Counted from the stretch's first letter, positions 113-23,340 are shown. The stretch: DNA of 37,049 bases from Candidatus Woesearchaeota archaeon (GCA_964546165.1 CAZJIV010000003.1:1-37049), one strand, 5' to 3'. Program-made: numbers and translations. Notes: a model not told the origin generated them from the letters alone.

Positions 113-1690
113 ATGAATAAAAATCAAATAGGAATGGATAAAGGAAAAATCTTAATTTTGGCACTTGCAGTTTTTGCATTGGTTTCAATGTATTCTGTGA
201 GTGCGCATTTTGTTTGCGGTCAGGTTCTTGATTCAAGTGATAATACTTCTGCTTCGTGGTCAACCGTAAGAATCTTTTATCCATCCAATCCGCTGAAGTT
301 CACGACTTGTCAGGTAAGTCCTCAGGAAAATAAATATTGTTGTGATTCTGAAGCAATTCCCGGGAAGACCTGGAAAATTGGAGATGTTGTTTCTGCAGAG
401 ATTTTTGAATCTCACGATGATCTTGCTGCAGGACCTGTTTCTGTAACAACGACAGGAGAATCTTATGACATATTTCCCACTATGCAACTTGAGAAAGTTA
501 TTAATGTTTACAAGCCAAATTCTTCGCTGATTATTTCCAAGAATCCAAATGTTTTGCTTAATGCAAGTTTCCTTCCACCTTATAATACTGTTTCGTTGAA
601 TAACATAACCCTTTGCAACAACTGCAGCAATTTTTTTGGGAATGTTTCTGCTTCTTTTGGTGACAATAACTGGCAGATTTCTTCAACTGATGGAGCGAAT
701 ATATTTTACAAAAATATTTCCTTTACTTTGATTAAAAATTATAATTTTACAAGAAAGCTCGAGTGTGATAACTGCAAGGGGCTTTCGGTAAAAGACGGAA
801 GCGTATTTGCTGTTTTCCTAAAAATTAATTTGTCCAATCCTGTGAATAACCAGATTCTTACTGAGAGTGTTCCTTCTGATTTCAAGATTTTGAATTCCAC
901 AGGAAGCATAAGTATTTACAGTTCTGATTATAATACAATCTCCTGGAATGTTTCCGGGAGTTACATTGAAGAAAATTATACTCTTGAAGCACCAAGCAAT
1001 TTTTGGGCCTCTGATTATGAGTTTTCGACCGAATTGGGAGGAGAAATTATTAATACTGACGAGGTAAATGTTTTCAAGCTGGTTAATTTTTTCCCGGTTA
1101 GACATCAAAAGAGATATTATGGAATGCCTTCTGTTCTCTATCTAAGAGTTTCCAATAAAGAGCCTTATGTAATTCATGATAATGGGAATTTGATTGACGT
1201 CGCTTTTTTCCCAAATTCCACTTTGAATAACGTACAGTTTCAAGTTCTGAATTGGACTCCTTCTGAAAAAATCAAGAATGCAATTTCTTATTACCTTATA
1301 AAATCAAACATTGAGCAAAGTCAATGGGGGAAGACCTATGTGGATTTTAAAGTCAATAAAAATTCTGTTAAAAATTCAAGTGACGTATTATTTATGAGCT
1401 ATAATAATAGCAAATGGAATCCCAGCAACATAACTCTGTATAATCAGGATAATGAAAATTTTTATTTCAGAGGATTCATAACCGGAAATGCGTTCGCGAT
1501 TGTAGGCAATAGGACAGAATCTCCTGTGGCCGCCCCAGTTTATCTTGGATTTAGAAATTTTTTTACAGGTAATGTTGTTTATTCTGGAAATCAAACGGGC
1601 AATTTGCGAAGTCTTTTCAATTTTAGGAAATCTGCCCTTGTGGGGAATGTTGGTGCATTTGCGGACTCTTTGTTGAGGATTCTTTCTTGA
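113..1690 (+). CDS. hypothetical secreted or N-terminally anchored glycoprotein
   Basis: The ORF-track start at 92 is a TTG; the first in-frame ATGs are at 113 and 134. A hydrophobic segment ILILALAVFALVSMYSVSA is followed by a Cys-containing domain (HFVCGQV...CQVSPQENKYCCDSEAIPG). N-x-S/T sequons are dense. No family recognised. Confidence 0.7.
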   Translation: MNKNQIGMDKGKILILALAVFALVSMYSVSAHFVCGQVLDSSDNTSASWSTVRIFYPSNPLKFTTCQVSPQENKYCCDSEAIPGKTWKIGDVVSAEIFESHDDLAAGPVSVTTTGESYDIFPTMQLEKVINVYKPNSSLIISKNPNVLLNASFLPPYNTVSLNNITLCNNCSNFFGNVSASFGDNNWQISSTDGANIFYKNISFTLIKNYNFTRKLECDNCKGLSVKDGSVFAVFLKINLSNPVNNQILTESVPSDFKILNSTGSISIYSSDYNTISWNVSGSYIEENYTLEAPSNFWASDYEFSTELGGEIINTDEVNVFKLVNFFPVRHQKRYYGMPSVLYLRVSNKEPYVIHDNGNLIDVAFFPNSTLNNVQFQVLNWTPSEKIKNAISYYLIKSNIEQSQWGKTYVDFKVNKNSVKNSSDVLFMSYNNSKWNPSNITLYNQDNENFYFRGFITGNAFAIVGNRTESPVAAPVYLGFRNFFTGNVVYSGNQTGNLRSLFNFRKSALVGNVGAFADSLLRILS

Positions 1691-2099: not shown

Positions 2100-2167
2100 T
2101 TTTTATTTAATCTGAGACAATTTATTAACTTTCCTGAAATCTTATGGTATTACTAAGTATTATTTAG

Positions 2168-2192
2168 TATTACTTAATAATATTAAGTAATA
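2168..2192. promoter_or_regulatory. perfect 12-bp inverted repeat with a 1-nt centre (TATTACTTAATA-A-TATTAAGTAATA); candidate operator
   Basis: Read directly: 2168-2179 is the exact reverse complement of 2181-2192. The half-site GTATTACT also occurs as a direct repeat at 2147-2154 and 2167-2174. The palindrome ends at the TATA box at 2193-2200. Confidence 0.55.
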
Positions 2193-2200
2193 TTTATAAA
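2193..2200 (+). promoter_or_regulatory. archaeal TATA box (TTTATAAA) for the RHH/giant-gene transcript
   Basis: Consensus-like octamer 48 nt upstream of the ATG at 2248. A GAGGTGA Shine-Dalgarno lies at 2237-2243. The same octamer recurs at 15759-15766. Confidence 0.5.
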
Positions 2201-2247
2201 CGTTGCTACCTCTTTTCTATTACATTCCTGGGGAATGAGGTGAATTA

Positions 2248-2418
2248 ATGAAAGATAGAGCTAGTTTTACTTTGGACAAAGAGACACTGGATATCCTGGA
2301 TAAGCTGTCTGAGAAGAGCAAGTACAGGAACAAGTCGCATATTGTCGAAGAGGCGATAAAACTTCTGGGTAAGAACGAGGACCTGGAAGATAAAGAAAAG
2401 GAGGTGAAAAATGAATAA
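2248..2418 (+). CDS. ribbon-helix-helix (CopG/Arc/MetJ-type) DNA-binding protein, 56 aa
   Basis: Not in the ORF track (<60 aa). My translation is MKDRASFTLDKETLDILDKLSEKSKYRNKSHIVEEAIKLLGKNEDLEDKEKEVKNE*. It shows a beta-strand (ASFTLD), helix (KETLDILDKLSEKS), loop and helix (SHIVEEAIKLL) pattern like CopG. A GAGGTGA SD lies 4-5 nt upstream. The stop at 2416-2418 overlaps the ATG of the giant gene. Confidence 0.75.
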   Translation: MKDRASFTLDKETLDILDKLSEKSKYRNKSHIVEEAIKLLGKNEDLEDKEKEVKNE

Positions 2419-5400
2419 AAAATCTATGTACAGGCTAAGCGCTGCAACTGTGGGGGTTGCAGTAATTCTTGCCTTGGTGATTTTTGTTCTTCTGCCGGTG
2501 CTTTCTTCACAGCCGATTTCAAAAAGCAGTTACACGCTTGGAGAAAATGTAAAAATAGATTTGTCAGGACAAAATGTAAGTGTCAAGATAATCACACCTT
2601 CGACATCTTATGTTGTCCGAGCCTCTGGCTCTTTCATCTTTCAACCAAACGAAACAGGAATGTATCATGTTATTTTCGGAAACGAGACACAGATATTTAC
2701 TGTTGTTGATAACGGGCAATTTGAAAATGTAAGCCAGGAGAGCAATCAGTTTTCAAACCAATCTGAAATTCCAAACGGAGAGGTTGTGCCCCCAGGGTAT
2801 TCTTCGCAGATTGTGCTTGGGCAACCTGTAGTCTGGAGAAAAAGTCTGGAACAAAATTCAAGCGGGACTGTAAATCTTACACTCCCCCCTGAAGCGAAGA
2901 ATATTGATGTTAACAGATTTAATGGGGAGAAAGTGGAGAAAGCAAATTTCAAGGTTTCTGGTTCTCAGGATTTCTCACTTCTTGAATCAATTGTAAATTT
3001 CATAACAAATAACCCTTCAAATAAAACAAATCAATCTGTGAATGTTAATGTTACAGACAATTCTACCTATCAAGTTGAGTATGAAACTCCTGCGCCTTAT
3101 TCCGTTGAGAGCGACCTGAAAAATGGCAAGAGGGTCAAGATGGTTGATCCAACAAATCTTTACTACCAAAATGTTCTATCTTTTACAAATCTTCCAGAGA
3201 GCCTTAACATTACAAATCCCTCTAATGTTAAAATCTATTGGGTAGAGAACAAGAGTTATATCCCTGCCAAAAGTGTTGTTGACACGAATGGAGATGGAAT
3301 TTATGATTATGTTGAATGGATAACACCCCACCTCTCTAATGAAACTTTTGATATCATAGTTGCGAGTCAAGCAGAACATCTTGATGCAAACAGAACTTTT
3401 GTATCTGATATTTACAATCAAATTAAGTCTCTTGATGGGGTTTGGAGCGAGACAATTCCTGACGGAGATTTTGTTAGAGTAACTTTTGAAAAAAATTTAA
3501 CGAACGCCAATGATATTACTTTGTTTCCAAAGATAATTTCAGGAACTCCAAAAATTGTTGTCTACGAAAAAAATAAGACAGTTCCGGTGGCAGAATTTAA
3601 TTCTTTGTTGAATGATACCTATAATATTGTCTCTCTGCTTAATTTAAATGGAACTCAGGATGTTTTTGATCTTCAGGTCTTGAATGGTTCTGTTCAATTT
3701 GATGAGATCGTTGACCCAACAGCAAAGGTCGTTTACAACACTTCTGGAACTTTTAATTTCACTGTTCCTGCCGGTATAACAAATGTTACAATAAAAGCCT
3801 GGGGAGCAGGCGGTGGCGGCGGCTCTGGTGGTGGAGCGGGACTTACGGGAGGTACTGGAGGGGCTGGAGGTTTTGCACAAGCTACTGTAACGGTTACACC
3901 TGGTAATAATCTTACTGTTGTTGTCGGTTCAGGGGGTGGTCCAGGAGGTGCAGGAAGTCAAGCTGCAGGAGCAGGCGGCGGCGGCGGAGGAGTTACAGGA
4001 GTTTTTAATGGTGCCATGACTCAGACAAATGCACTTACCGTTGCAGGAGCAGGCGGCGGCGGCGGCGGCGGCGATAATTCAGCTGTTAATGGTGGAGCAG
4101 GAGGCGCCGGTGGAGGAACAAGTGGAGTTGCAGGTACTGCTGCAGGAACTGGAGGCGGTGGCGGTGCAGGAACACAAACTGGCGGTGGAGCTGCTGGAAG
4201 CGGTGCAGGAAGTCCAACTGCAGGAAGTGCTCTTACAGGTGGAAATGGGGGAATAGGACAGGGAACTGCCGGGACTGGTGGCGGCGTTGCAGGAACTCCA
4301 AATGGTGGAACTGGTGGAAATGATGGAAGCTTCTCTGGAGGCGGCGGTGCAGGAGGTGCAGGCTACTTTGGCGGTGGCGGCGGCGGCACTAATAGTGGAG
4401 GCGCAAACTCTGGAGGCGGCGGTGGCGGCGGCTCTGGCCGTGTAACAGGAACATCCACAACTTTAACAGCAGGTTCCGGAACAAGTGTTGCTAATTCAGG
4501 AGATACAGATTATCAATCAGGTTTTGGTGTTGGGGGTTCTGCAGGGGCAGGAAACAATGGTCCTGGTGGAAATGGGGGTTCAGGGCTTATAGTCATAAGT
4601 TATATTTATTCAAATCCCACAATAACATGGAATGATTCAACTGTTGATTTTGGAACACATCTTCAATCTGGAGGCAACAGGAGCAATTCGACTTTAATTT
4701 ATTCCGGGGGAACAAATGATAATGTTGCTGTTTCCTGTTCGAGCGGAGATTGTTCAAGCATAACAACTAATTTTACTTCTCTAAGTCTTACTTCCGGACA
4801 ATCTTCCCGAGTTTATTTTACATGCTCTAATGTTACATCCGGAAGCTTCTCAGCAGTTTATGGGGTAACCTCTGACCAAAGTCCGTTCCCTGACACAATA
4901 ACAGTTTCCTGCAGCATGCTCCCACCTCCTTGGTATAATACAACTTTTAATTATTGTAAAAATATTACAATTGTAAACAGCGGCACTACTGCATTGACAA
5001 ATTTTCCTTCATATGTAAATATAACAAACTTCACTAATATGGACCCCACCTTGGATGATTTGAGGTTTGTAAACACTTTTTGTAACAATAGCGGGAGTGC
5101 TTTGCCTTTTGAAATTGAAAGCAGGGATTCAAATCATGCTGACGCTTGGGTCTTGACAAATCTCTCGACAGGAAACACAACAATTTCTGTTTATTATGGA
5201 AACACAACTTCTGTAAGTTCTGTTCAAAATGCAAGTGCCGTTTGGGGAAGCAGTTATATCGGAGTTTGGCATTTGCAGAATAGCAGTGGAAGCCTTAATG
5301 TAACAGACGCTTCTATTACAGGAAATGATGGAACAAATTCCGGGGCTACATTAACATCCGGTTTGATTGATGGGGCAGGAAGTTTTAATGGGGCCAGCAG

Positions 5401-14400: not shown

Positions 14401-15649
14401 CTTTGCTCCTCCTAACAGAACTTTGACAGTGGACCAGAGCCCCCCTGTAATTAATTTGGTTTATCCTCTGAATAATTCCGGAATTTATTTTGGAGGTGGA
14501 ACCTTAGTTTTGAAGTGGTTCGCAAATGATACTTACGATTCTGTTATTAAGTGCAATGTATATGTGGACGGTTCCCTCAAAACACCAAACAAACTTGTAA
14601 CGAGCGGAGTTCTTGCAACACAAATTGAAACTCTCAGTCTTGGATATCATTACTGGAATACCACTTGCTGGGACAGGTCCTACAATTATAATTCGAGCAC
14701 ACCTTATTATTTTAATTTCACTTATCCGGATTTTGTGATTAACGGAAGCAGCATTTCAGTGAATGATACAGCTCCCAAAGAAAATTCCACGATACAGATT
14801 AATGTTACTGTATTCAACAAAGGCGGAGCTGATGCTTCAAATGTCAAGGTAAGTTTGTTTAATGGAAATCCTGATTTGGGTGGAACACAAATAGGAACTA
14901 ATCACACACTATATCTTGCCCATAATAGTTCAAATAAGACATCTTTTGTATGGGCTGCTTCAATCGGAACTACGCAACTCTTTGCGGTTGTTGACCCTCC
15001 TCTTGCAACAAACGGTTCTTTCCATGAATGGAATGAAAGCAACAATGAATTCAGCAAAAACATTACGGTTGGAAGCTGGCAGTTTATCTATGGGAAAATA
15101 AATACTTCAAGCAATTTCCAACTCGCCGATAGTTCAAATTCATCTTTGCAGGATTGGGCATCTAATCTTGTCAACAATGGAAATATCTTTGTTACAGATT
15201 CTGATTCGTCGATTGACTGGACTGCCTTGGTTGCTCTTGGAAAATACATTAACGGTACAAGTACTACAAATGATTTCTCTGATGTAGACAGCCTTTTGGG
15301 AATGACCGGATTCAACGATTCTGTTACAAATATTTATACGAATTCAGGAACTCCAAAAAACACAACAGACTTTAATGTTTTTGGCAGTCCTATTACCGGA
15401 GTTCCTATTGCAGACTCCATAAACAATTCAAACTTTACTACCGGGATTTTCTGGGACGGGTCTGATGATGTTTCTTCAGACGGACAGTTCGATGTTTCTG
15501 ACAAAGAGGATTTGGTATTTGGCTCCAAGATACATCGGAATACCCAAGGAACTTTTGGAGTTTATGATTATGAGATAAGAGTTCCGGCTAAACTTAGGAG
15601 TTATCACGGAGGTTCTTCTCCGGGAGTGATTTATGTTGAACTTGGTTAA
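2411..15649 (+). CDS. giant (4,412 aa) multidomain cell-surface adhesin-like glycoprotein
   Basis: Uninterrupted 13,239-nt ORF with a GGAGGTG SD at 2400-2406. N-terminal hydrophobic signal/anchor (LSAATVGVAVILALVIFVLLPVLSS). Modular beta-rich domains are listed as separate features. N-x-S/T sequon density is very high. No C-terminal TM or sorting signal. Confidence 0.95.
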   Translation: MNKKSMYRLSAATVGVAVILALVIFVLLPVLSSQPISKSSYTLGENVKIDLSGQNVSVKIITPSTSYVVRASGSFIFQPNETGMYHVIFGNETQIFTVVDNGQFENVSQESNQFSNQSEIPNGEVVPPGYSSQIVLGQPVVWRKSLEQNSSGTVNLTLPPEAKNIDVNRFNGEKVEKANFKVSGSQDFSLLESIVNFITNNPSNKTNQSVNVNVTDNSTYQVEYETPAPYSVESDLKNGKRVKMVDPTNLYYQNVLSFTNLPESLNITNPSNVKIYWVENKSYIPAKSVVDTNGDGIYDYVEWITPHLSNETFDIIVASQAEHLDANRTFVSDIYNQIKSLDGVWSETIPDGDFVRVTFEKNLTNANDITLFPKIISGTPKIVVYEKNKTVPVAEFNSLLNDTYNIVSLLNLNGTQDVFDLQVLNGSVQFDEIVDPTAKVVYNTSGTFNFTVPAGITNVTIKAWGAGGGGGSGGGAGLTGGTGGAGGFAQATVTVTPGNNLTVVVGSGGGPGGAGSQAAGAGGGGGGVTGVFNGAMTQTNALTVAGAGGGGGGGDNSAVNGGAGGAGGGTSGVAGTAAGTGGGGGAGTQTGGGAAGSGAGSPTAGSALTGGNGGIGQGTAGTGGGVAGTPNGGTGGNDGSFSGGGGAGGAGYFGGGGGGTNSGGANSGGGGGGGSGRVTGTSTTLTAGSGTSVANSGDTDYQSGFGVGGSAGAGNNGPGGNGGSGLIVISYIYSNPTITWNDSTVDFGTHLQSGGNRSNSTLIYSGGTNDNVAVSCSSGDCSSITTNFTSLSLTSGQSSRVYFTCSNVTSGSFSAVYGVTSDQSPFPDTITVSCSMLPPPWYNTTFNYCKNITIVNSGTTALTNFPSYVNITNFTNMDPTLDDLRFVNTFCNNSGSALPFEIESRDSNHADAWVLTNLSTGNTTISVYYGNTTSVSSVQNASAVWGSSYIGVWHLQNSSGSLNVTDASITGNDGTNSGATLTSGLIDGAGSFNGASSYVSLPNSLTSSNEFTVSAWFKTTANGVIFSEQNTAYSGTPSSWDPVMYVESTGLLHGGIYTGSIPALESSSAVNDGNWHRGTVIVDTANANQSLFVDGSYVGSASGTPETAASTYYYLGTGYTNSWTNTNNGWYFFNGAIDQVELSSSLLSSSWIKQSYNAEADAGSYTFFGNEILAPTVNRPPTTPTNIQCNGNNNCNININDTVTLKASGSTDSEGDAITYVLEASLENDTTTLNSTGASLSGEGAPTTTAYTSAGTNSFVVPTGVTNVVVKAWGAGGAGGSGGSDPTNGQGGNGAGGGFATSNLSVSAGQTLNVLVGGAGQPGVVAGTTTAAGDGGGGGGRSEINRSGTVLLVAAGGAGGGGGDNSAGGGSQPGGAGGVGGGTTGGAGTPSNNAGAGGGGTQSSGGAAGTGGATSGTAGSARTGGRGGDNSAGTTGNGGTGGLGGGGNGGQASSSAYGGGGGGGAGYYGGGGGASSAAGDGGAGGGGGGSSYVTGLDTSTSSGSGQNAGNNIDTDYLTYSSNAGHGGPGASYCTDGSCVGTSGTDGLVVLSYITVTGNDTNSSYVTYNNVGSDYHLVTKITVTVNVTGYDPRVSAGYSDNKPDLWVEAYNGGSWISLGKLNLPSLYTGSGINTTAKNFSVITTTPSVLDSWNDTSNQDIRIKAIYMDTNSSSADKINYSNVWVSIEGHKWAVIGNHSESGSFVWNTTSVPPQTGVDLRARAIDLNGSDSYSDYYTKDSFMSIKNNYPPTVAISYPVNGSTMRDVTPLLDVSTNDTVNALWYSVNGGTNQTLCTFCTGEYLVKYLHLPEGINTVTAYVNDTIGRIGKYSSSFNISLNDSYYDNYTDNSSIAQINGVVWNPGRVNYESETLEHGTFFDGFESGLLSSNWTTYTDNTYGEILVDSSNGPYDGSYQVLMDSSTNNNYALEELITNYDFSGASNIMLNFAEREWADEDNPCPATWSGHNDCDGVAFTCDGTNWYLLYNLVGSNSTSTYDLKGPINVSASPYFCSTVESTFAIKFQHYDNFPLTTDGIGFDDINVSFDKTTIKKANFTSYSINTLDSITRITNVTWDENGTGIGKNITVQLSADNGANWYNATEGSGLIVYPGNALLYRVLFAASRPTNFTFGNLTINWSSQAVSLPNITINHPINGTTLKDVTPTLNVSVNQIVNALWYSADGSANKTMCVNCNASITYLHLPEGSHSVFVYANNTAGQISSNNVSFSVYMNYSYYDNYTDNSSLDPSKTNYLINWTPGQIAFKKEPPQQKTFFDGFESGIISSNWTTYESSTFGEILVDSSNGPYDGTFQALMDSTANNNYALEELITNYDFSGAENIVLTFAEKEFTDEDNPCPATWTGHNNCDGVAFTCDGNTWHLLYNLVGSNSTNTYGIKGPINISSNPNFCSQINSSFAVKFQHYDNFPVTSDGIAFDDINLSWDVPTVNAANFTSYSISTLSKIRGITNVTWGTSGASSGNNITVQLSANNGADWFDATNGQNVTLGTASGNNLLYRVFFNASNTNQFSLNNMTINWTDFGLPSIVITSPLNKTYQVNVTHLDYVITGSNLSSCWYSLNGGATNHTMSCTGSTVSGIGAAEGSNTWIAYVNNTGGYLASYPVTFFVDTQKPNLTLNAPDNNTQFSTGTVQFNWTADDNLDSSPLCNLTVGGIQRASISSTAGTPILYNVTGLTNGNYNWYVVCSDEAGNTNTSGTRKFNINIQTVLKQVVTGSGTTSGAVTYVTLPTPLSNISKAFSVISYSHTISNSFENTFKSSKLINTTTLAIYAAGAASPVSFRYAIFEFTQDSPINVQRITMTIPTGPTLPQYFNIPSPVNMSTSFMIYEGLTHYGTYSNVGSRSYNRNRLLNSTTVEYNVGAAPNTGPQNDTVEVVDWKDSKLVDSVQSGLTALATTATSTTVTPPISVDPNRTLLFIDYMTGSGSAFTEPPSQLGVRANLDSNGHITLDRSSTGAQVLIYWQLVEFKSGHVQVQHVQGDFSNGQGTKNFILQTPVDTSRSAAFGTTMEPFGLSGAMSSDTTGGDINSAMFSIYLVNSSYVRATRGSTTGTASVGMQVLYFTGAPTISNVNASTVTNTGATITWDTNVDSNSTVNYLLPNGTALSASDPFLVTSHSVPITGLSANTTYYYNVTSCNANGCSNQTGFNFTTTITPPTAPVVYLLNPANNAFSNVSTVEFSYNTTDVNNNIANSTLILNNVKNQTNQSVIVSSAVNNFTASLPDGIYNWTVNVTDKTNLVGTSSTQRKLTVDTHAPYSITVNYPPNNTIFYSSYVDINFTVLDNLASTLKCNLIANNNVIDTNSSVKNNTVTTFAEFLVVGNYLWNITCFDGANNSITSSLYNITVFDVPPEVNLVTPNNTYFNTSNVGLAYNTSDNNGVVLAKLILNGTVNATNQSVIVNGSTNYFNVTLPEGFYNWTVNVTDTSGLNSTNASRYFTVDLHPPQVNLNLPANGTSVNFSTLNFNFTAIDNFAKNMSCNFTFGDTHVINISAQNDTLTDFQVNLTNGINNWYVACSDNAGNTNTSESRWLNVSEPPTINLTTLNNTNFNTSSISLHYIPHDNQGIDVCSLYLDGSLNQTTGPGEVTNDVDNQFTIGSISQGYHTWYIICNDSFGLQTQSVTNRFLVNLGNIKITLLAPPDGANIFSDTVNFSYNVTENIDPTLDCNITVNNIVLDNYTATAGAITNRSVKFLSGGTKFWNVTCIDSAYNVNTSVTRNFTLAFPPVVSLISPVNGTAVNSSAVVLKYNASDPNLNIANATLILNGIANQTNQSVIVNGQISNFTLNLSDGNYNWTVNVTDTTNLLGTANTTNFTVDTHPPNVTLNSPANGSTQTWNNLTLNFTVRDNLAQSTLCNIYINGTLNKTGVVAQNNSNTISYVIEHDGNYSWNVLCNDSANNTGASPVVNFSIKAPPNVTLVNPPDGNLTNSSHIQFEYIGDDPIGLANCSLIFDGAINDTVNNVDSNIVNVFNVYGVPQGVHNWTVGCTDVDGNFFAPPNRTLTVDQSPPVINLVYPLNNSGIYFGGGTLVLKWFANDTYDSVIKCNVYVDGSLKTPNKLVTSGVLATQIETLSLGYHYWNTTCWDRSYNYNSSTPYYFNFTYPDFVINGSSISVNDTAPKENSTIQINVTVFNKGGADASNVKVSLFNGNPDLGGTQIGTNHTLYLAHNSSNKTSFVWAASIGTTQLFAVVDPPLATNGSFHEWNESNNEFSKNITVGSWQFIYGKINTSSNFQLADSSNSSLQDWASNLVNNGNIFVTDSDSSIDWTALVALGKYINGTSTTNDFSDVDSLLGMTGFNDSVTNIYTNSGTPKNTTDFNVFGSPITGVPIADSINNSNFTTGIFWDGSDDVSSDGQFDVSDKEDLVFGSKIHRNTQGTFGVYDYEIRVPAKLRSYHGGSSPGVIYVELG
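3728..4610 (+). other. glycine-rich domain, copy 1 (within the giant CDS)
   Basis: Opens VVYNTSGTFNFTVPAGITNVTIKAWGAGGGGGSGG. About 250 aa of G/A/S/T-rich low complexity follow. Closes GGNGGSGLIVISYIY. The DNA is locally GC-rich (GGC/GGT/GGA runs) in an AT-rich gene. Confidence 0.8.
4925..5925 (+). other. DUF2341-like plus LamG/concanavalin-A-like lectin module (within the giant CDS)
   Basis: WYNTTFNYCKNITIVNSGTTALTNFPSYVNIT...LRFVN...LPFEIESRDSNHADAWVLTNLSTGNTTISVYYGNT matches my memory of DUF2341. GVWHLQNSS...DASITGNDGTNSGATLTSGLIDGAGSFNGASSYVSLP...FTVSAWFKT...GNWHRGTVIVD...LFVDGSYVGS resembles LamG-type jelly rolls. Confidence 0.6.
6158..7070 (+). other. glycine-rich domain, copy 2 (within the giant CDS)
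   Basis: Opens AYTSAGTNSFVVPTGVTNVVVKAWGAGGAGGSGG and closes GTSGTDGLVVLSYIT. It has the same architecture and boundary motifs as copy 1. Confidence 0.8.
7640..10009 (+). repeat. tandem duplication of a 1,185-nt (395-aa) two-domain unit inside the giant CDS (7640-8824 and 8825-10009)
   Basis: The two units run in parallel. Examples: PVNGSTMRDVTPLLDVSTNDTVNALWYSVNGG / PINGTTLKDVTPTLNVSVNQIVNALWYSADGS. Also FFDGFESGLLSSNWTTY...DEDNPCPATWSGHNDCDGVAFTCDG...KFQHYDNFPLTTDGIGFDDINVSF / FFDGFESGIISSNWTTY...DEDNPCPATWTGHNNCDGVAFTCDG...KFQHYDNFPVTSDGIAFDDINLSW. Confidence 0.9.
10553..11620 (+). repeat. four divergent ~85-90-aa repeats of an unrecognised beta-type module (within the giant CDS)
   Basis: The units end ...VSFRYAIFEF, ...NDTVEVVDW, ...AQVLIYWQLVEF and ...ASVGMQVLYF. 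Three of them open with VQ (VQRITMT, VQSGLTA, VQVQHVQ). Sequons are sparser here than in flanking regions. Confidence 0.5.
11621..11890 (+). other. fibronectin type III domain (within the giant CDS)
   Basis: GAPTISNVNASTVTNTGATITWDTNVDSNSTVNY...VPITGLSANTTYYYNVTSCNANGCSNQTGFNFTT is a classic FN3 pattern (ITWxT ... GLxxxTxYY). Confidence 0.75.
11891..14722 (+). repeat. array of alternating Ig-like modules, about five ~190-aa two-module units (within the giant CDS)
   Basis: A-type modules carry NQSVIV...(D/E)G.YNWTVNVTD...FTVD(T/L)HxP, with YNWTVNVTD coded near 12105, 12672 and 13797 and variants near 13230 and 14361. B-type modules carry DNLA...CN...WN(I/V).C.D.A.N. A similar pair lies at 10010-10552. 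Confidence 0.75.
14723..15070 (+). other. CARDB-like domain (within the giant CDS)
   Basis: YPDFVINGSSISVNDTAPKENSTIQINVTVFNKGGADASNVKVSLFNG...TSFVWAASIGTTQLFAVVDP...EWNESNNEFSKNITV follows the CARDB pattern (V.N.G...A..V.V.....ExNExNN). Confidence 0.65.
15071..15646 (+). other. C-terminal ~190-aa domain of the giant protein, homologous to the two downstream stand-alone proteins
   Basis: It shares motifs at the start, middle and extreme C-terminus with ORFs 15841-16638 and 16704-17480 (alignment given in findings). No family recognised. Confidence 0.75.
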
Positions 15650-15711
15650 AATGGGAGAAATGAAGAGTATGGTTGACAGATTGGCTTTAAAAGATTTTTG
15701 TAATGGCAATC

Positions 15712-15749
15712 TTTTTACGACGACAAATTTTCCTTTCTTTCCCTTTTTC
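15712..15749 (+). terminator. oligo-T tracts downstream of the giant gene (candidate archaeal terminator)
   Basis: T5 at 15712-15716 and the T-rich run TTTTCCTTTCTTTCCCTTTTT at 15728-15748, about 60-100 nt after the stop. Archaeal termination commonly uses T-tracts. Confidence 0.35.
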
Positions 15750-15758
15750 TGGGAAACA

Positions 15759-15766
15759 TTTATAAA
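15759..15766 (+). promoter_or_regulatory. TATA box (TTTATAAA) preceded by purine-rich GAAA(CA), for the 15841 gene cluster
   Basis: Consensus octamer 75 nt upstream of the ATG at 15841. It is followed by a 7-bp hairpin (ACAGTAG-6 nt-CTACTGT, 15790-15809). A strong SD GGAGGTG lies at 15824-15830. Confidence 0.5.
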
Positions 15767-15840
15767 TAAATCTTATCTATTACTCTATAACAGTAGTTAT
15801 TGCTACTGTAGAGATAATTAAAAGGAGGTGTGAGAGTTAC

Positions 15841-16638
15841 ATGAGACAATCTTATTGGTTGTGCCTTTTGGCAGTTCTAGTGGTCGCTTTGTTTGCGTTG
15901 CCAGCTGTTACAGCTGTTCAGCCTGTAGGTGCTACAGTCACTGAAAACGGAAACCAAACTGCGCCTTTAGATGCAGCAGGAAGCCAAGCAGCAATTGCAG
16001 GTAATGTCAGTGATATAAATCTTTATGGTTATTCCTCGACTCAGTCCTGGCAAGGTTACTATGGTAATGTCAGCGGTACAATTCAATTAGCAGATGGAAG
16101 TGACCATGTTCTTTACAATTGGTCTCAGACTAATCCTACTGGTGAAGTTTATTCATCCACAAACAGTACTATATCTTGGCTGAATGTGCAGTGTTTTAAC
16201 TTTACAGCTACCGGTGCAGACAATCCTTCAGGAGAAACTGCTGGCGGTACAAACCAGAAAGGGATGAATTTGACACAGTTGCAGAACATATTCGGAATCA
16301 ATCAAACTGCTATAGACAGTGTTAACAACACGTTTGACCTTATTGGAGGAGCAAATGACCACTTGTTGTTCTACACAGCAAATCTTCAGTTTGATCCATC
16401 AGAATGTCAGACAGCAAGGTTGTTCACAGATTCCAGTGGGGCTCAAATACAGGGTCATTTTGAAGAAGTGATACAGTATGAGCCTACGACAAATAGTGTC
16501 ATCTGGACATCGGTCATAAACAGAAACTTTGTTGGCTTTGATGACGTTCAACATGACTTCGAAATGTTAGTTCCAGAGAACGGTCACGGAACAGACACTG
16601 CTACAACTACGTATTACTTTTACGTAGAAATCGAGTAA
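15841..16638 (+). CDS. secreted protein, paralog A of the giant protein's C-terminal domain
   Basis: Sec-type signal peptide (LCLLAVLVVALFALPAVTA|VQP). Strong SD. Homologous to 16704-17480 and to 15071-15646. Ends ...TTTYYFYVEIE*. Confidence 0.9.
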   Translation: MRQSYWLCLLAVLVVALFALPAVTAVQPVGATVTENGNQTAPLDAAGSQAAIAGNVSDINLYGYSSTQSWQGYYGNVSGTIQLADGSDHVLYNWSQTNPTGEVYSSTNSTISWLNVQCFNFTATGADNPSGETAGGTNQKGMNLTQLQNIFGINQTAIDSVNNTFDLIGGANDHLLFYTANLQFDPSECQTARLFTDSSGAQIQGHFEEVIQYEPTTNSVIWTSVINRNFVGFDDVQHDFEMLVPENGHGTDTATTTYYFYVEIE

Positions 16639-16674
16639 GGCCTAATTTTATTGTTTATAGTTATAGGGCCTTAC
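16635..16674 (+). other. 8-bp hairpin (GTAAGGCC...GGCCTTAC, 24-nt loop) overlapping the stop codon of the 15841 gene
   Basis: Read directly: 16635-16642 is the reverse complement of 16667-16674. It is GC-rich relative to its surroundings. Role unknown (mRNA processing, stability or attenuation). Confidence 0.35.
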
Positions 16675-16703
16675 TTGGGGTGATTGTAGCTGGGACTTGA
16701 TTT

Positions 16704-17480
16704 ATGAGAGACAGAAACATGAACAAAGAAACAAAAGACGGTGAAACAATCTTCAGAGCTCTTGCTCTGTTGGGGATCATTTCCCTATTTGGGATTTTAA
16801 TTCTATCTATGATTAGTGCTGCTTCAGTCCCTGTTCCTCCAAATGTTTTGCAATCCGTTTCAAATGATAGTGCAGGCTCGGTTCCTGCAATGAAATTCAA
16901 CATATCTGGAGGTGTAATTGCAACGTTTAATCTTACTGCGAGAGTTCAGGATCCGAGATGGAAAGGTTTTGTTGGAAATGTCACAGGAACTTTTGCATTG
17001 CAAGATTCTACAGGGTCAACGCTTTTTGATTGGGCGCTTACAAGTGTTTCGGGTGCAATATTTGCCACGAGAAACAGCGGCGCGATAACTTGGACAAATG
17101 TTAATTGCTCCAATCTAACAGGGCTTAATGCGGAGAATGTTGCACTAAATCTTAATGACCCTAATGATAACCTTAACCAGACATTCTCATATTCGCTTCC
17201 AACAAACAGCCCTACATTCTCGGTTGGCTCCAAGATTATCCCTGCACAAGAATGTCCTGTTCTTAATACTTATAACTCGACAGGAGCTCAAAGCAATTAC
17301 TTTTATGAGATGGCTCTTTATGCTACAGGTTCACAAATACCAATTTATGCAACTATAATGGAGCAGGGGGTTGTTGGTTTTAATGGAGATCGTTATGATT
17401 TCCAGGAGATTGTTCCCCAGAATGGAACTGTGGGATCTGCGCCAACGGCATATTATCTTTACGTCCAGCTAGGAAGTTAA
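16704..17480 (+). CDS. secreted protein, paralog B of the giant protein's C-terminal domain
   Basis: N-terminal hydrophobic segment FRALALLGIISLFGILILSMISAAS (alternative ATG at 16719). It shares the same motif set and the same two Cys positions as paralog A. Ends ...PTAYYLYVQLGS*. Confidence 0.85.
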   Translation: MRDRNMNKETKDGETIFRALALLGIISLFGILILSMISAASVPVPPNVLQSVSNDSAGSVPAMKFNISGGVIATFNLTARVQDPRWKGFVGNVTGTFALQDSTGSTLFDWALTSVSGAIFATRNSGAITWTNVNCSNLTGLNAENVALNLNDPNDNLNQTFSYSLPTNSPTFSVGSKIIPAQECPVLNTYNSTGAQSNYFYEMALYATGSQIPIYATIMEQGVVGFNGDRYDFQEIVPQNGTVGSAPTAYYLYVQLGS

Positions 17481-17484
17481 TAAA

Positions 17485-18513
17485 ATGGATGAGAAAAATG
17501 GAAAAAAATACTTCGGAAAAATTTTGTTATTTCTTTTAGCCGAAGCTTTTCTACTCTTTATTATAATCTCGACCTTTGGAGGAGGTGTTGTTGGCTATGG
17601 TGGTTCTGGAGGTAATGTTACTGTACAGAGCATCCTTAAAGTTGGAAATGTTTCGCCTGAAGTTGTAAATGTAACTGTTAATGATTATGCTACTTCAATA
17701 GACCTTACACCAAATTCAACCAAGAATATAAGCTGTCAAGCACTTGTTCGTGACTGGAATGGAGAAGGCAATATTACCAATGTAACTAGTGAGTTCTTTA
17801 TATCTCCCGGAGTTTATAATGGAGGATATGCTGCAGGGCCAAATGATAATAATTATCATTATACAAATAACAGTTGTTATATTAATGATTCATTTGGAAC
17901 GTGGCATGGGATGGTAGATGATCCTTATATTGCGCTTGCGACCTGCAACTACAGCATTTGGTATTATGCATATCCTGGAACTTGGAACTGCACTGTTTTT
18001 GTTGATAGTATTCCTAAGCTTAATGCGACAGGGAGCAATACAACTACCATAAATCAACTTTTGGCTGTTGGACTTCCACCTTCTATAAATTTTGGAACGG
18101 TGAACGCAACATACGTGTCTGATGAGAATTATACAAATGTAACTAATATGGGGAATGTTGAACTTAACCTTAGCCTTTATGGTTATGCACAGACTCTTGG
18201 GGATGGTTATGCAATGAATTGTAGTGTTCCTCTTTCGACTTATCATCCTAAGATACCTATAGGATTTGAAAAATATAATCTTACAGTGTCCCATCCAGGG
18301 GGACTTACTTTAACTCAATTTGAAACGAATTACACGAACCTTACAAGTACTTACACTGTTAGGAAGTTTAATCTTAATTTCAGGGAGAATGATGCAGCTC
18401 AGGGAACTGATGATACTAATGCAACTTACTGGAGAGTTTATGTTCCAAATGGTGCTGCGGGGACCTGCACAGGAAACATAGTCTTTGGAGCAAGCACTTC
18501 CCCAGGAAGTTAA
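17485..18513 (+). CDS. hypothetical protein with an N-terminal hydrophobic segment and Ig-like/beta-rich ectodomain
   Basis: The ATG lies 4 nt after the preceding stop. The N-terminus is KKYFGKILLFLLAEAFLLFIIISTFGGGVVGYGGSGG (hydrophobic helix plus Gly linker). Cys- and sequon-rich beta-type sequence follows. The C-terminal YWRVYVPNGAAGTCTGNIVFGA weakly echoes the VPxNG...YV motif of its neighbours. Confidence 0.85.
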   Translation: MDEKNGKKYFGKILLFLLAEAFLLFIIISTFGGGVVGYGGSGGNVTVQSILKVGNVSPEVVNVTVNDYATSIDLTPNSTKNISCQALVRDWNGEGNITNVTSEFFISPGVYNGGYAAGPNDNNYHYTNNSCYINDSFGTWHGMVDDPYIALATCNYSIWYYAYPGTWNCTVFVDSIPKLNATGSNTTTINQLLAVGLPPSINFGTVNATYVSDENYTNVTNMGNVELNLSLYGYAQTLGDGYAMNCSVPLSTYHPKIPIGFEKYNLTVSHPGGLTLTQFETNYTNLTSTYTVRKFNLNFRENDAAQGTDDTNATYWRVYVPNGAAGTCTGNIVFGASTSPGS

Positions 18514-18555
18514 ATTCTGGGAAAGGTTTAATAATATTATTTTTCTGAGTTGTTT

Positions 18556-23294: not shown

Positions 23295-23340
23295 TTTTTG
23301 GAGATATTTTTATAAAGTCTTTTTCATAAAAGTCTTTGTT

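What the first reader, a model, noticed from the sequence alone, without database searches (positions are those of the whole stretch)
2147..18513. Candidate five-gene surface module: RHH regulator, giant adhesin, two subunit-like paralogs, one protein with an N-terminal hydrophobic anchor
All five ORFs are on the + strand. The couplings are tight: RHH stop and giant ATG overlap by 8 nt, and there are 4 nt between the 4th and 5th genes. The block is bracketed by its own promoters (TTTATAAA at 2193 and again at 15759). It is flanked by a divergent membrane-protein gene upstream and by tyrS downstream. The last gene (17485-18513) has an N-terminal hydrophobic helix plus a Gly linker (KILLFLLAEAFLLFIIISTFGGGVVGYGGSGG). 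A possible model is base (5th gene), shaft (paralogs A/B) and tip (giant protein). The separate strong promoter and SD in front of paralog A would allow the small proteins to be made in excess over the 4,412-aa protein. None of this matches a named archaeal surface system that I know. No type IV prepilin signals were seen on paralogs A and B, and the nearest secretion ATPase is 15 kb away.
Basis: inference. Interest (0 to 1): 0.75.

Follow-up and report, generated by a model that had tools for sequence, protein, structure and literature searches.

The report
New DPANN archaeal surface-assembly gene module
This block encodes a conserved surface module found only in tiny symbiotic (DPANN) archaea, in which a giant sticky protein, two small secreted proteins and, in relatives, a membrane motor protein all share one previously undescribed docking domain, so its genes are candidates for the still-unidentified host-contact structures.

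Summary

The gene order giant-A-B-gene5 is collinear in 20 further loci of Woesearchaeota and Pacearchaeota genomes. A-B-gene5 is collinear in 27.

The main new result is a shared beta-rich domain of about 190 aa, the "A-like domain". It has no Pfam, NCBIfam or PDB match. It makes up mature A and B. It is the extreme C-terminus of the 4,412-aa protein. In relatives it is the extracellular N-terminal domain of a two-TM HerA-type ATPase encoded beside A homologs. Its AlphaFold model is confident (pLDDT 92) and has no Foldseek neighbour.

My best reading is as follows:
- A-like domains co-assemble.
- A, which has its own conserved promoter and SD, is the bulk subunit.
- B and gene5 form the membrane-proximal part.
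- The giant protein docks by its C-terminus and displays lectin-like and Ig-like domains.
- The RHH protein autoregulates through a 10-bp-phased GTAATAYT array at the TATA box.

The shape of the assembly (filament, tube or lattice) and any physical contact are inferred, not shown.

The parts
113..1690 (+). Secreted, N-glycosylated protein (525 aa from the ATG at 113; listed from a TTG at 92). It belongs to family 'c10'.
   Evidence: It has a signal peptide, 19 sequons and 8 Cys. Homologs lie directly upstream of the regulator+giant pair in L080/L081 and in about 13 other loci. It has a weak PGF-pre-PGF hit, below cutoff.
2147..2194 (.). Candidate RHH operator. It is a 10-bp-phased, partly palindromic array of GTAATAYT/GTATTAYT half-sites that abuts the TATA box.
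   Evidence: Three direct copies at 10/20-nt spacing, 22-nt arms 86% complementary. The motif has 8 matches in the window against 2.2 expected. In L065 four exact copies lie at exactly 10-bp spacing (1894-1931) in front of the orthologous RHH gene.
2193..2200 (+). TATA box (TTTATAAA) of the RHH-giant transcription unit.
   Evidence: Read directly from the sequence. Function is inferred.
2248..2418 (+). 56-aa ribbon-helix-helix DNA-binding protein, translationally coupled to the giant gene by an 8-nt overlap.
   Evidence: Pfam RHH_1 E 8.7e-7, above cutoff. A 65%-identical ortholog with the same 8-nt overlap is in L065. Other giants are preceded by a small wHTH, RHH or AbrB-like gene instead.
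2411..15649 (+). 4,412-aa surface glycoprotein (giant adhesin-like). Its N-terminal (~1-500) and C-terminal (~3165-4412) parts are conserved and its middle is variable.
   Evidence: One N-terminal hydrophobic segment, 227 sequons, pI 4.4. Conservation map. Domain scan.
3746..4609 (+). Glycine-rich block 1 of the giant (aa 446-733).
   Evidence: Pfam Gly_rich_2 25.1 bits against a cutoff of 24.3. Coordinates and 44-46% Gly. It explains the GC peak.
5054..5866 (+). DUF2341 (aa 882-944) plus Laminin_G_3 / concanavalin-like lectin domain (aa 993-1152) of the giant.
   Evidence: Pfam DUF2341 26.6 bits (cutoff 23.4). Laminin_G_3 E 1.1e-16, 61.8 bits.
6173..7072 (+). Glycine-rich block 2 of the giant (aa 1255-1554), a paralog of block 1.
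   Evidence: The same VKAWGAGG...SYI frame. GC is 53%.
11627..15058 (+). Stalk of the giant: fn3 (aa 3073-3149), a Big_13/Big_7 Ig-like array (aa ~3165-4100) and CARDB (aa 4106-4216).
   Evidence: Pfam fn3 25.9 bits, Big_13 43.6 bits, Big_7 34.6 bits, CARDB 39.7 bits, all above cutoff. PDB 2kut hit over aa 4115-4218.
15068..15646 (+). C-terminal A-like domain of the giant (aa ~4220-4412). It ends ...GVIYVELG-COOH, as A ends ...YYFYVEIE and B ends ...YYLYVQLGS.
   Evidence: blastp of B against the giant C-terminus gives E 9e-6, aligned to the last residue. hhalign of the A/B family against giant C-termini gives 96.6%, E 6e-10.
15678..15750 (+). Inverted repeat plus T-rich tract after the giant stop codon. 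It is a terminator-like boundary between the two transcription units.
   Evidence: Inverted repeats at 15678-15712. T-runs are visible. Function is inferred.
15752..15830 (+). Promoter and leader of A: BRE-like GGAAACA, TATA TTTATAAA (15759-15766), a 5'-UTR hairpin (15779-15818) and SD GGAGGTG (15824-15830).
   Evidence: The same BRE-like and TATA elements lie at -61..-84, and GGAGG at -12..-23, in the window and 18 syntenic loci. The window hairpin has z = -4.5, and 9 of 19 loci have z < -2.
15841..16638 (+). Paralog A: Sec signal peptide plus one A-like domain. It is the proposed bulk subunit.
   Evidence: At least 700 homologs at 50-69% identity, all 'hypothetical', all DPANN. AlphaFold2 pLDDT 92.2, pTM 0.88. 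No Foldseek, PDB, Pfam or NCBIfam match.
16704..17480 (+). Paralog B: a distinct orthologous subfamily of the A-like domain that nearly always lies between A and gene5.
   Evidence: 27% identity to A, E 2e-25. The B cluster has 29 members, 26 of them in the context A_B_gene5. 77 homologs, same taxa.
17485..18513 (+). Gene5: an N-terminal TM segment with a conserved Glu, followed by a Cys-containing, heavily glycosylated ectodomain. It is the proposed membrane-proximal partner.
   Evidence: Family alignment with 4 invariant Cys and a conserved 'LE' in the TM segment. 6.4 sequons per 100 aa. At least 202 homologs, all hypothetical. No Pfam or PDB match. The B-gene5 gap is 1-11 nt in most loci.

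Best explanation
The block is one copy of a cell-surface module specific to Woesearchaeales and Pacearchaeales (DPANN archaea).

Shown:
- All non-regulatory products have the composition of exported, N-glycosylated, acidic proteins.
- The gene order is conserved.
- The parts share one previously undescribed beta-rich 'A-like' domain of about 190 aa.
- That domain is the whole of mature A and B.
- It is the extreme C-terminus of the 4,412-aa protein and of many smaller CARDB-containing proteins.
- In relatives it is the first extracellular domain of a two-TM HerA-type ATPase encoded next to A homologs.

Inferred mechanism:
- A-like domains associate with each other outside the cell.
- A is made in excess. 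It has its own conserved BRE/TATA and strong SD, and oligo-T follows its stop codon. It forms the bulk of a polymer, most likely a fibre or tube rather than a sheet.
- B and gene5 are translationally coupled, and gene5 is membrane-anchored. Together they form the membrane-proximal adaptor.
- The giant protein is plugged into the polymer by its C-terminal A-like domain. It holds an Ig/CARDB stalk and its lectin-like (LamG, DUF2341) and glycine-rich domains outward, to bind a partner or host cell.
- Where the HerA-type ATPase is present, its A-like ectodomain would seat the same polymer on a membrane motor.
- The RHH protein binds the phased GTAATAYT array at the TATA box and autoregulates the RHH-giant operon.
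For: Synteny:
- 27 loci have A-B-gene5 collinear. In 20 of them an orthologous giant ending in the A-like domain lies directly upstream.
- tyrS lies downstream in 3 loci, which argues for vertical inheritance.

Shared domain:
- A against B, E 2e-25.
- B against the giant C-terminus, E 9e-6, aligned to the last residue.
- The A/B family against giant C-termini, hhalign 96.6%.
- The A/B family against the HerA-ATPase N-terminal region, hhalign 98.1% and 98.7%, E 1e-13 and 3.5e-16.
- ATPase topology: TM 27-62 and 677-710, 14 of 16 sequons in the loop between them, Walker A at 762. The A-like domain is therefore outside the cell.
- The ATPase matches only HerA structures in the PDB.
- The HerA gene lies within about 1-7 kb of an A homolog in 26 loci. 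These include loci with the A-B-gene5 triad (L020, L026, L043).
- In all 18 longer proteins among the top 150 profile hits, the domain ends 0-3 residues from the C-terminus. The profile finds 1,418 clusters at 50% identity.

Expression signals:
- Conserved promoter and SD before A.
- A run of at least T5 within 30 nt after the A stop in 21 of 27 loci, and B-gene5 gaps of 1-11 nt.

Regulator:
- Nearly every giant gene whose 5' end is visible (11 of 13 loci) is preceded by a small DNA-binding gene. These are RHH, wHTH or AbrB-like.
- The operator array is conserved in motif, phase and position between the window and L065.

Extracellular nature: sequon density, pI and single N-terminal hydrophobic segments.
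Against: - There is no experimental or multimer-model evidence that A-like domains contact each other.
- The AlphaFold monomer of A is a complete, confident globular domain with no obvious missing strand or donor arm. Nothing in it demands polymerisation.
- The HerA-type ATPase is not in this 37-kb window, so its link to this particular copy is by homology of loci only.
- The giant's N-terminal hydrophobic segment (about 23 residues) could be an uncleaved anchor. That would put the A-like domain at the distal end and invert the geometry.
- The fold of gene5 is unknown. Its relation to A is not supported (hhalign 60% over 42 columns).
- The T-runs lie in AT-rich DNA and are weak evidence.
- A is unusually conserved for a surface protein (50-69% identity), which could also fit a receptor-binding or enzymatic role.
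Confidence: 0.5

Rival explanations
1. S-layer-like sheet. A (with or without B) is the major envelope lattice protein of these archaea and gene5 is its membrane-anchored stalk. Giant adhesins, the smaller CARDB proteins and the HerA-ATPase ectodomain are inserted into the lattice through their A-like domains.
For: - Signal peptide, heavy N-glycosylation and acidic pI.
- Strong conserved promoter and SD.
- An operon pairing a secreted protein with a TM-anchored partner. From my own knowledge, this is like the SlaA/SlaB arrangement.
- Many different passenger proteins share the C-terminal domain, as expected for a lattice-insertion module.
- No S-layer protein is known for this lineage (none was found in literature).
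Against: - Several A-type paralogs occur per genome, up to four or more loci in one assembly.
- Conservation is very high (50-69% identity across orders). Both points are unusual for S-layer proteins.
- There is no match to any S-layer Pfam family.
- Nothing here distinguishes a 2-D from a 1-D assembly.
Confidence: 0.25
2. Anchor or lectin domain without polymerisation. The A-like domain binds an envelope component, such as a glycan, a lipid head-group or gene5. It simply tethers passengers such as the giant to the cell. Free A and B are soluble binders or competitors.
For: - The domain is always at the extreme C-terminus of diverse passenger proteins.
- The model is a self-contained globular beta domain.
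- Invariant aromatic and acidic residues (W, Y, D, E) would suit ligand binding.
Against: - Stand-alone A-type proteins are the most common form and have the strongest expression signals. That is hard to explain for a mere tether.
- Two conserved stand-alone subfamilies in fixed order with gene5 suggest a defined hetero-assembly.
- The domain's presence on a HerA-motor ectodomain suggests a structural seat.
Confidence: 0.15
3. Type IV pilus-like or archaellum-like system. Gene5, with its N-terminal hydrophobic segment and conserved Glu, is a pilin-like protein assembled by the FlaI/TadA-like ATPase 15 kb downstream.
For: - Gene5 has a basic N-terminus and a hydrophobic helix with a conserved Glu.
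- A T2SSE-family ATPase is in the window.
Against: - No conserved G/A cleavage motif lies in front of the helix, and the position of the Glu varies.
- A and B have Sec-type signals.
- There is no linkage of gene5 to a T2SSE ATPase or a PilC/FlaJ gene in 81 loci. The recurrent ATPase is HerA-type.
- There are no pilin family hits.
Confidence: 0.03
4. Provirus, mobile element or chance neighbourhood. The HerA-type ATPase together with beta-rich proteins could be a virus packaging and capsid set, or the genes could be unrelated neighbours.
For: - HerA/FtsK ATPases package viral DNA (my own knowledge).
- The top Foldseek 'hits' were jelly-roll capsid proteins, but they were insignificant (E 0.2, TM ~0.1).
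Against: - No relative of A is found in 2.9 million IMG/VR contigs.
- The products carry signal peptides and dense glycosylation sequons.
- The ATPase has a large extracellular loop.
- Flanks are housekeeping genes with conserved tyrS.
- The order is conserved in 27 loci.
Confidence: 0.02

Closest known systems
Chaperone-usher pili with two-domain tip adhesins (e.g. FimH: lectin domain plus pilin domain). Comparison from my own knowledge.
   Same: The logic is the same. A large or binding 'passenger' is joined to a structure built of small subunits because it ends in a domain homologous to those subunits. The major subunit is expressed in excess from the promoter-proximal position.
   Different: There is no usher or chaperone. 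The lineage is archaeal. The domain is about 190 aa and is not detectably an Ig-like pilin fold (no Foldseek hit to any pilin). The AlphaFold monomer is complete, without a missing strand. The recurrent motor is a cytoplasmic-membrane HerA ATPase.
Gram-positive sortase pili (tip adhesin, shaft pilin, base pilin). Comparison from my own knowledge.
   Same: Tip, shaft and base roles are encoded in one operon.
   Different: There is no sortase and no LPXTG or PGF-CTERM sorting signal (no NCBIfam hits). There are no pilin Ig or CnaB domains in A, B or gene5.
Sulfolobales S-layer pair SlaA/SlaB. From my own knowledge, and mentioned in PMC11329633.
   Same: A secreted glycoprotein is encoded next to a membrane-anchored glycoprotein partner, with strong expression signals.
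   Different: There is no sequence or fold similarity. Several paralogs occur per genome. The domain is also fused to giant adhesins and to an ATPase ectodomain.
Archaeal non-type-IV filaments: Sulfolobus threads, Pyrobaculum bundling pili (TasA-like AbpA), Mth60 fimbriae, Pyrodictium cannulae. From my own knowledge.
   Same: These are Sec-exported, glycosylated, beta-rich subunits that polymerise without a type IV pilus machine.
   Different: A Foldseek search of PDB entries released up to April 2026 found no similarity to any structure (best E 0.21). None of those systems is linked to a HerA-type ATPase or to giant proteins that carry a subunit-like domain.
Ced/Ted DNA-import systems of Crenarchaeota (membrane HerA/VirB4-like ATPase plus pilus). 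From my own knowledge.
   Same: A membrane-associated ATPase of the HerA/FtsK superfamily is genetically linked to extracellular subunits.
   Different: Ced/Ted pilins are small helical proteins. Here the subunits are 240-aa beta domains and the ATPase itself carries one. No homology was tested beyond the generic HerA match.
Bacteroidota type IX secretion C-terminal domain (CTD) cargo. From my own knowledge.
   Same: One conserved domain sits at the extreme C-terminus of many otherwise unrelated surface proteins.
   Different: The T9SS CTD is about 80-100 aa, bacterial, tied to an outer membrane, and is removed on attachment. Here the domain also exists as abundant stand-alone proteins.
Giant surface proteins of other DPANN archaea (e.g. 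the SPEARE proteins of Nanohaloarchaeum, from my own knowledge) and the unidentified attachment organelle of Nanobdellota (PMC11420986).
   Same: Very large multi-domain surface proteins occur in host-dependent DPANN. The host-contact structures seen by cryo-ET have unknown protein composition.
   Different: No homology to SPEARE was tested. The cultured Nanobdellales were not shown to carry A-like genes. The link to the attachment organelle is speculative.

Membership tests
Ribbon-helix-helix (CopG/Arc/MetJ-type) DNA-binding proteins, for ORF 2248-2418 | Match to the RHH_1 profile above the curated cutoff: an N-terminal beta-strand followed by two helices. | tested here: met
   PF01402 RHH_1, E 8.7e-7, 29.1 bits against a cutoff of 20.5, residues 6-39.
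Ribbon-helix-helix (CopG/Arc/MetJ-type) DNA-binding proteins, for ORF 2248-2418 | Binds repeated or inverted operator half-sites near its own promoter. | tested here: inconclusive
   A phased GTAATAYT array abuts the TATA box in the window (2147-2194). Four exact copies at 10-bp spacing lie before the L065 ortholog. Binding itself cannot be tested here.
aCcr1/CdrS cell-cycle RHH regulators | Match to NCBIfam NF053762 above cutoff. | tested here: not met
   14.8 bits against a cutoff of 60.
Type IV pilins / archaellins, for A, B and gene5 | Class III signal peptide: a short basic N-terminus, a G/A cleavage site and then a hydrophobic helix retained in the mature protein. | tested here: not met
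   - A and B: a hydrophobic core followed by an AxA-like site and P-x-G-A. The mature model has no N-terminal helix.
- Gene5: no conserved cleavage motif.
Type IV pilins / archaellins, for A, B and gene5 | Genetic linkage to a PilB/FlaI ATPase and a PilC/FlaJ platform protein. | tested here: not met
   None is among the conserved neighbours in 81 loci. The recurrent ATPase is HerA-type. The window's T2SSE ATPase is 15.5 kb away.
Donor-strand-exchange pilins (chaperone-usher, TasA/AbpA-like, threads) | Ig-like or jelly-roll subunit fold similar to solved pilins, with an incomplete fold and a donor strand. | tested here: not met
   Foldseek against the PDB gives best E 0.21, TM ~0.1, with no pilin among the hits. 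The monomer model is complete at pLDDT 92. There is no Peptidase_M73/TasA hit.
Known archaeal S-layer protein families | Match to an S-layer Pfam or NCBIfam profile or to a solved S-layer protein. | tested here: not met
   No hits in Pfam, NCBIfam, PDB sequences or the PDB fold search. S-layer proteins are diverse, so this does not exclude an S-layer role.
Archaeosortase / PGF-CTERM or LPXTG-anchored surface proteins | A C-terminal sorting signal: a motif, then a TM helix, then a basic tail. | tested here: not met
   A, B, gene5 and the giant have no C-terminal hydrophobic segment and no NCBIfam sorting-signal hit. ORF 113-1690 has only a sub-threshold PGF-pre-PGF hit (22.4 bits against a cutoff of 28).
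Giant multi-domain adhesins, for ORF 2411-15649 | A signal sequence, long arrays of Ig-like/fn3 domains and lectin-like binding domains. | tested here: met
   Laminin_G_3 (61.8 bits), DUF2341, fn3, Big_13 (43.6 bits), Big_7, CARDB (39.7 bits) and Gly_rich_2 are all above cutoff. It has an N-terminal hydrophobic segment and 227 sequons. Adhesion itself is not testable here.
HerA/FtsK-superfamily ATPases, for the partner encoded in related loci but not in the window | DUF87/HerA central domain with Walker A and B motifs, and similarity to solved HerA structures. | tested here: met
   PF01935 and PF05872 are above cutoff. Walker A is GATGMGKS at 762. PDB profile hits are to HerA only (4d2i, 9x1l, 8wiv).
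Virus or provirus structural module | Relatives in viral contig collections, capsid-like folds and integration hallmarks. | tested here: not met
   No relative in IMG/VR. No significant BFVD fold match. Flanks are housekeeping genes.

The most novel reading that the evidence does not exclude
A-like-domain proteins polymerise on the hexameric ectodomain ring of a two-TM HerA-type ATPase. This would form a previously unknown kind of archaeal surface fibre or tube, unrelated to type IV pili, donor-strand pili or known S-layers. The structure would carry giant adhesins through the same domain. It would be the host-attachment apparatus of Woesearchaeales and Pacearchaeales, and possibly their apparatus for transferring DNA or other substrates. 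That is a molecular candidate for the cone, portal, filament or barrel structures seen by cryo-ET in DPANN, whose proteins are unknown.
Probability: 0.25. Interest if true: 0.92.

Novelty: categorically new. Interest (0 to 1): 0.78.

Why it matters
DPANN archaea are abundant and mostly uncultured, and they depend on physical contact with host cells. [quoted passage not shown]

This work defines a widespread gene module restricted to this lineage:
- 1,418 protein clusters at 50% identity carry the domain.
- One new domain, of unknown fold class, ties together abundant small secreted proteins, giant lectin/Ig adhesins and a membrane HerA-type motor.

That yields a short, concrete list of candidates, with coordinates, motifs and a predicted operator, for several kinds of experiment:
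- labelling
- proteomics
- multimer modelling
- heterologous assembly

If the co-assembly model holds, it would be a new class of prokaryotic surface machinery. If it does not, the A-like domain is still a large uncharacterised family that deserves a profile in the domain databases.

Tried and rejected
- First AlphaFold run of A with a 30-sequence alignment. The model was poor (pLDDT 57) and was not used. Adding the B subfamily (140 sequences) gave pLDDT 92.
- Foldseek of the good model against the PDB and BFVD found no significant neighbour. The polyomavirus VP1 'hits' at TM ~0.1 were rejected as noise.
- Sequence and profile searches of A/B, gene5 and the giant against PDB chains found nothing for A/B and gene5. 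For the giant they found only an Ig-like and an fn3 hit.
- Pfam and NCBIfam scans found no family for A, B or gene5, including member-by-member scans of 140 and 32 homologs.
- Homology of gene5 to A/B was not supported (BLAST E 0.53; hhalign 60% over 42 columns).
- Homology of ORF 113-1690 to gene5 was not significant for the window pair, although long gene5-like proteins share its N-terminal domain.
- The divergent membrane gene 1623-2099 was tested as a module member. It has no homolog in 81 loci and was rejected.
- A conserved hairpin between A and B was not supported (mean z -0.4). Only oligo-T is recurrent.
- The 5'-UTR hairpin before A is strong in the window but present in only about half of the loci.
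- Viral origin was rejected, with no IMG/VR relatives.
- Five literature searches found no description of this cluster or domain. The 2026 Nanobdellota genome preprint does not mention HerA, adhesins, S-layer or pili.
- The organism name could not be recovered.

Full report
**1. The observation**

- RHH 2248-2418 (56 aa)
- giant ORF 2411-15649 (4,412 aa)
- A 15841-16638 (265 aa)
- B 16704-17480 (258 aa)
- gene5 17485-18513 (342 aa)

All five are on the + strand. The RHH stop and the giant start overlap by 8 nt. B and gene5 are 4 nt apart. TTTATAAA occurs at 2193-2200 and at 15759-15766, and GGAGGTG precedes both the giant and the A start codons.

The small ORF is a bona fide RHH_1 member (29.1 bits against a cutoff of 20.5). 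A and B are paralogs (27% identity, E 2e-25). Gene5 is not detectably related to them. Downstream lies tyrS (NF006330, 299.5 bits). Upstream lies a 3-TM ORF on the - strand. A FlaI/TadA-like ATPase lies 15.5 kb away. The rest of the window is housekeeping genes of an AT-rich archaeon.

**2. The products are extracellular glycoproteins**

The giant, A, B, gene5 and also ORF 113-1690 each have a single N-terminal hydrophobic segment. Each has a pI of 4.0-4.7, or 6.2 for ORF 113-1690. They carry 3.4-6.4 N-X-S/T sequons per 100 aa. Seven of the eight cytoplasmic proteins of the same window with an assigned function carry 0-0.75 per 100 aa.

A and B have Sec-type signal peptides: a hydrophobic core, a small-x-small site, then P-x-G-A. 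They do not have prepilin signals.

**3. Relatives and synteny**

A has at least 700 homologs at 50-69% identity, B has 77 and gene5 has at least 202. All are annotated 'hypothetical' and none has a Pfam domain. All named sources are Woesearchaeota, Pacearchaeota, Nanoarchaeota or Nanoarchaeia, apart from two probably mis-binned contigs.

I fetched 81 loci around A homologs and mapped the window proteins onto them.
- A-B-gene5 is collinear in 27 loci.
- In 20 of these an orthologous giant lies directly upstream.
- In 5 others a related protein of about 1,000 aa takes that place.
- tyrS follows gene5 in 3 loci.

The A family splits cleanly into an A-type group of 100 members and a B-type group of 29 members. 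B-type genes sit almost always between A and gene5. The B-gene5 gaps are 1-11 nt in most loci.

**4. The module is larger than five genes**

Homologs of ORF 113-1690, a secreted Cys-containing glycoprotein, sit immediately upstream of the regulator+giant pair in L080/L081 and about 13 other loci. The - strand membrane ORF 1623-2099 has no homolog in any locus and looks like an insertion.

Eleven of the 13 giant genes whose 5' end is visible are preceded, usually with overlap, by a small DNA-binding gene. It is a wHTH in 9 loci, RHH-like in one further locus (L018) besides the window and L065, and AbrB-like in one. The pairing of a regulator with a giant gene is thus conserved, while the regulator's fold is exchangeable.

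**5. The shared domain**

The last ~190 residues of the giant (aa ~4220-4412) align with B right to the C-terminus (E 9e-6). Profile against profile, the A/B family matches giant C-termini at 96.6% probability (E 6e-10).

The same C-terminal cassette, CARDB plus the A-like domain, forms a family of 500-630-aa 'mini-giants' (hhalign 100%).

A profile search of 1.84 billion representative proteins found 1,418 clusters (513 at E <= 1e-30). In all 18 longer proteins among the top 150 hits (343-1,635 aa), the domain ends 0-3 residues from the C-terminus.

No Pfam, NCBIfam or PDB family matches the domain, even when 140 members are scanned one by one.

With a 140-sequence A+B alignment, AlphaFold2 gives a confident beta-rich model of mature A (pLDDT 92.2, pTM 0.88). 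Foldseek finds no neighbour in the PDB (best E 0.21, TM ~0.1) or in BFVD.

**6. A link to a membrane motor**

Clustering all ORFs of the 81 loci revealed a second, recurrent locus type:
- a 1,120-1,275-aa protein
- two small proteins (107 aa, and 287 aa with coiled coil)
- A
- an ArsR-like HTH protein
- a second A-type gene
- optionally gene5
- a 9-TM protein
- the ORF113-1690 homolog
- a wHTH regulator
- a second giant

The large protein carries DUF87/HerA and CarboxypepD_reg domains. Its profile hits only HerA structures in the PDB. It has two TM segments (27-62 and 677-710), 14 of its 16 sequons in the loop between them, and its Walker A motif at 762.

The first ~190 residues of that extracellular loop are an A-like domain. 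hhalign gives 98.1% (E 1e-13) and 98.7% (E 3.5e-16). The W.G.YG, EVYAS, NTF, FQM.VP and TYYF motifs are aligned.

A shorter HerA variant lies within 7 kb of complete A-B-gene5 triads in L020, L026 and L043. At least one genome (DAHWKL01) carries both locus types on one contig. The window itself does not contain this ATPase.

**7. Architecture of the giant**

The domain order is as follows:

| Residues (aa) | Feature |
|---|---|
| 1-38 | signal or anchor |
| to ~445 | conserved N-domain |
| 446-733 | Gly_rich_2 block 1 |
| 882-944 | DUF2341 |
| 993-1152 | Laminin_G_3 (E 1e-16) |
| 1255-1554 | glycine-rich block 2 |
| middle | variable repeats |
| 3073-3149 | fn3 |
| ~3165-4100 | Big_13/Big_7 array |
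| 4106-4216 | CARDB |
| ~4220-4412 | A-like domain |

Only the N-terminal ~500 aa and the C-terminal ~1,250 aa are conserved among orthologs. The two GC peaks inside the gene are the glycine-rich blocks.

**8. Expression signals**

In the window and 18 syntenic loci, A is preceded by a BRE-like purine tract plus TTTATAAA at -61..-84 from the ATG, and by GGAGG at -12..-23. A 5'-UTR hairpin is strong in the window (z -4.5) but present in only about half of the loci.

A run of at least T5 follows the A stop codon within 30 nt in 21 of 27 loci. After the giant stop there is an inverted repeat and a T-rich tract.

These features fit two transcription units, with A made in excess. No transcript data were available to confirm this.

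**9. The regulator's target**

Directly upstream of the first TATA box lies an array of GTATTAYT/GTAATAYT half-sites (2147-2194). It is phased at 10 bp and partly palindromic. The motif occurs 8 times in the window against 2.2 expected.

In L065 the RHH is 65% identical and overlaps its giant gene by the same 8 nt. There, four exact GTAATAYT copies stand at exactly 10-bp spacing just upstream of the RHH gene. This supports autoregulation of the RHH-giant operon, although binding itself is untested.

**10. Interpretation**

Shown:
- a conserved, lineage-specific set of exported glycoproteins
- a new domain shared by free subunits, giant adhesin-like proteins and the ectodomain of a HerA-type membrane ATPase
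- conserved, separate expression signals
- a conserved operator-like array

Inferred:
- A-like domains bind one another.
- A forms the bulk of a polymer.
- B and gene5 form its membrane-proximal part.
- The giant docks through its C-terminus.
- The ATPase seats the structure.

I put 0.5 on this co-assembly model, with a fibre or tube geometry preferred. I put 0.25 on a lattice (S-layer-like) version and 0.15 on a pure anchoring or lectin role of the domain. The small remainder goes to type IV pilus-like, viral or coincidental readings. No relatives were found in IMG/VR.

The main weaknesses are these:
- There is no interaction evidence.
- The monomer model is complete and self-contained.
- It is uncertain whether the giant's N-terminal segment is cleaved.
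- The ATPase is absent from this window.

**11. Comparison with the known**

Functionally, the closest analogies are pili whose adhesin carries a subunit-like domain (FimH-type), tip/shaft/base sortase pili, SlaA/SlaB S-layers, T9SS C-terminal-domain cargo, and the Ced/Ted systems with a HerA/VirB4-like ATPase. All these comparisons come from my own knowledge.

Every membership test that could be run for these systems failed. Only the RHH protein, the giant's individual domains and the HerA ATPase belong to known families.

Five literature searches found no description of the cluster. Cryo-ET papers on cultured DPANN state that the proteins of their attachment organelle are unknown (PMC11420986) and that the molecular identity of their nanotube apparatus could not be confirmed (PMC11329633). 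Any connection of this module to those structures remains speculative.

**12. Verdict**

The module is real and widespread, and it is built around an undescribed domain. I rate it categorically new in its parts and architecture, with the function inferred only. Interest is 0.78.

Noticed in passing
window 113-1690 (+): A secreted, Cys-containing glycoprotein (525 aa). Its homologs sit directly upstream of the regulator+giant pair in many related loci, so it belongs to the module but lies outside the finding's coordinates. It has a sub-threshold PGF-pre-PGF hit.
   Followed up: partly
window 1623-2099 (-): A 158-aa three-TM protein whose 3' end overlaps that of ORF 113-1690 by 68 nt. It has no homolog in any of the 81 related loci, so it is probably a lineage-specific insertion between module genes.
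   Followed up: partly
window 2147-2194; L065 1894-1931: A 10-bp-phased GTAATAYT array abuts the TATA box in front of the RHH gene. It is conserved between two loci whose RHH proteins are 65% identical, and it is a candidate RHH operator.
   Followed up: partly
L029 5338-8697 and 25 other loci (not in the window): A two-TM HerA/DUF87 ATPase with an extracellular A-like domain and CarboxypepD_reg domains. It is flanked by conserved small proteins, an ArsR-like HTH and a 9-TM protein, and it lies next to A homologs. This is a second locus type of the same system.
   Followed up: partly
window 15779-15818: A stable hairpin in the 5' leader of A (MFE -13.9 kcal/mol, z -4.5). Comparable hairpins with different sequences occur in 9 of 19 loci. 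It could be an mRNA-stabilising element or a protein-binding palindrome.
   Followed up: partly
window 16636-16675 and the A-B spacers of 26 loci: The window has an 8-bp GC-rich stem (GTAAGGCC/GGCCTTAC) right after the A stop codon. Most relatives instead have oligo-T runs there, which suggests partial termination after A.
   Followed up: partly
window 3746-4609 and 6173-7072: Two paralogous glycine-rich blocks (39-46% Gly in their central 200 residues; Pfam Gly_rich_2) inside the giant gene cause the local GC peaks of 49% and 53%. The peaks are compositional and are not evidence of foreign DNA.
   Followed up: yes
window 23242-24948 (+): Another probable surface protein (568 aa as listed, 14 Cys, 3 sequons per 100 aa, one N-terminal hydrophobic segment) with no Pfam or NCBIfam family. 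Its 5' end overlaps the M16 peptidase gene.
   Followed up: no
window 34028-36316 (+): A 762-aa T2SSE-family ATPase, most similar to FlaI and TadA models but far below every curated cutoff. It has a long N-terminal extension, and no pilin or platform gene was recognised next to it.
   Followed up: no
L063 (JAHYJW010000009.1) and protein P0091: A homologs sit on contigs labelled 'Patescibacteria group bacterium' and 'Leptospiraceae bacterium'. Given the otherwise strict Nanoarchaeia distribution, these are probably mis-binned archaeal contigs.
   Followed up: no
L004 12679-13809 compared with window 18550-19575: The tRNA-synthetase gene that follows gene5 in L004 is only 30% identical to the window's tyrS, whereas A is 69% identical between the same two loci. 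Either the A-B-gene5 genes are unusually constrained, or the synthetase was replaced.
   Followed up: no
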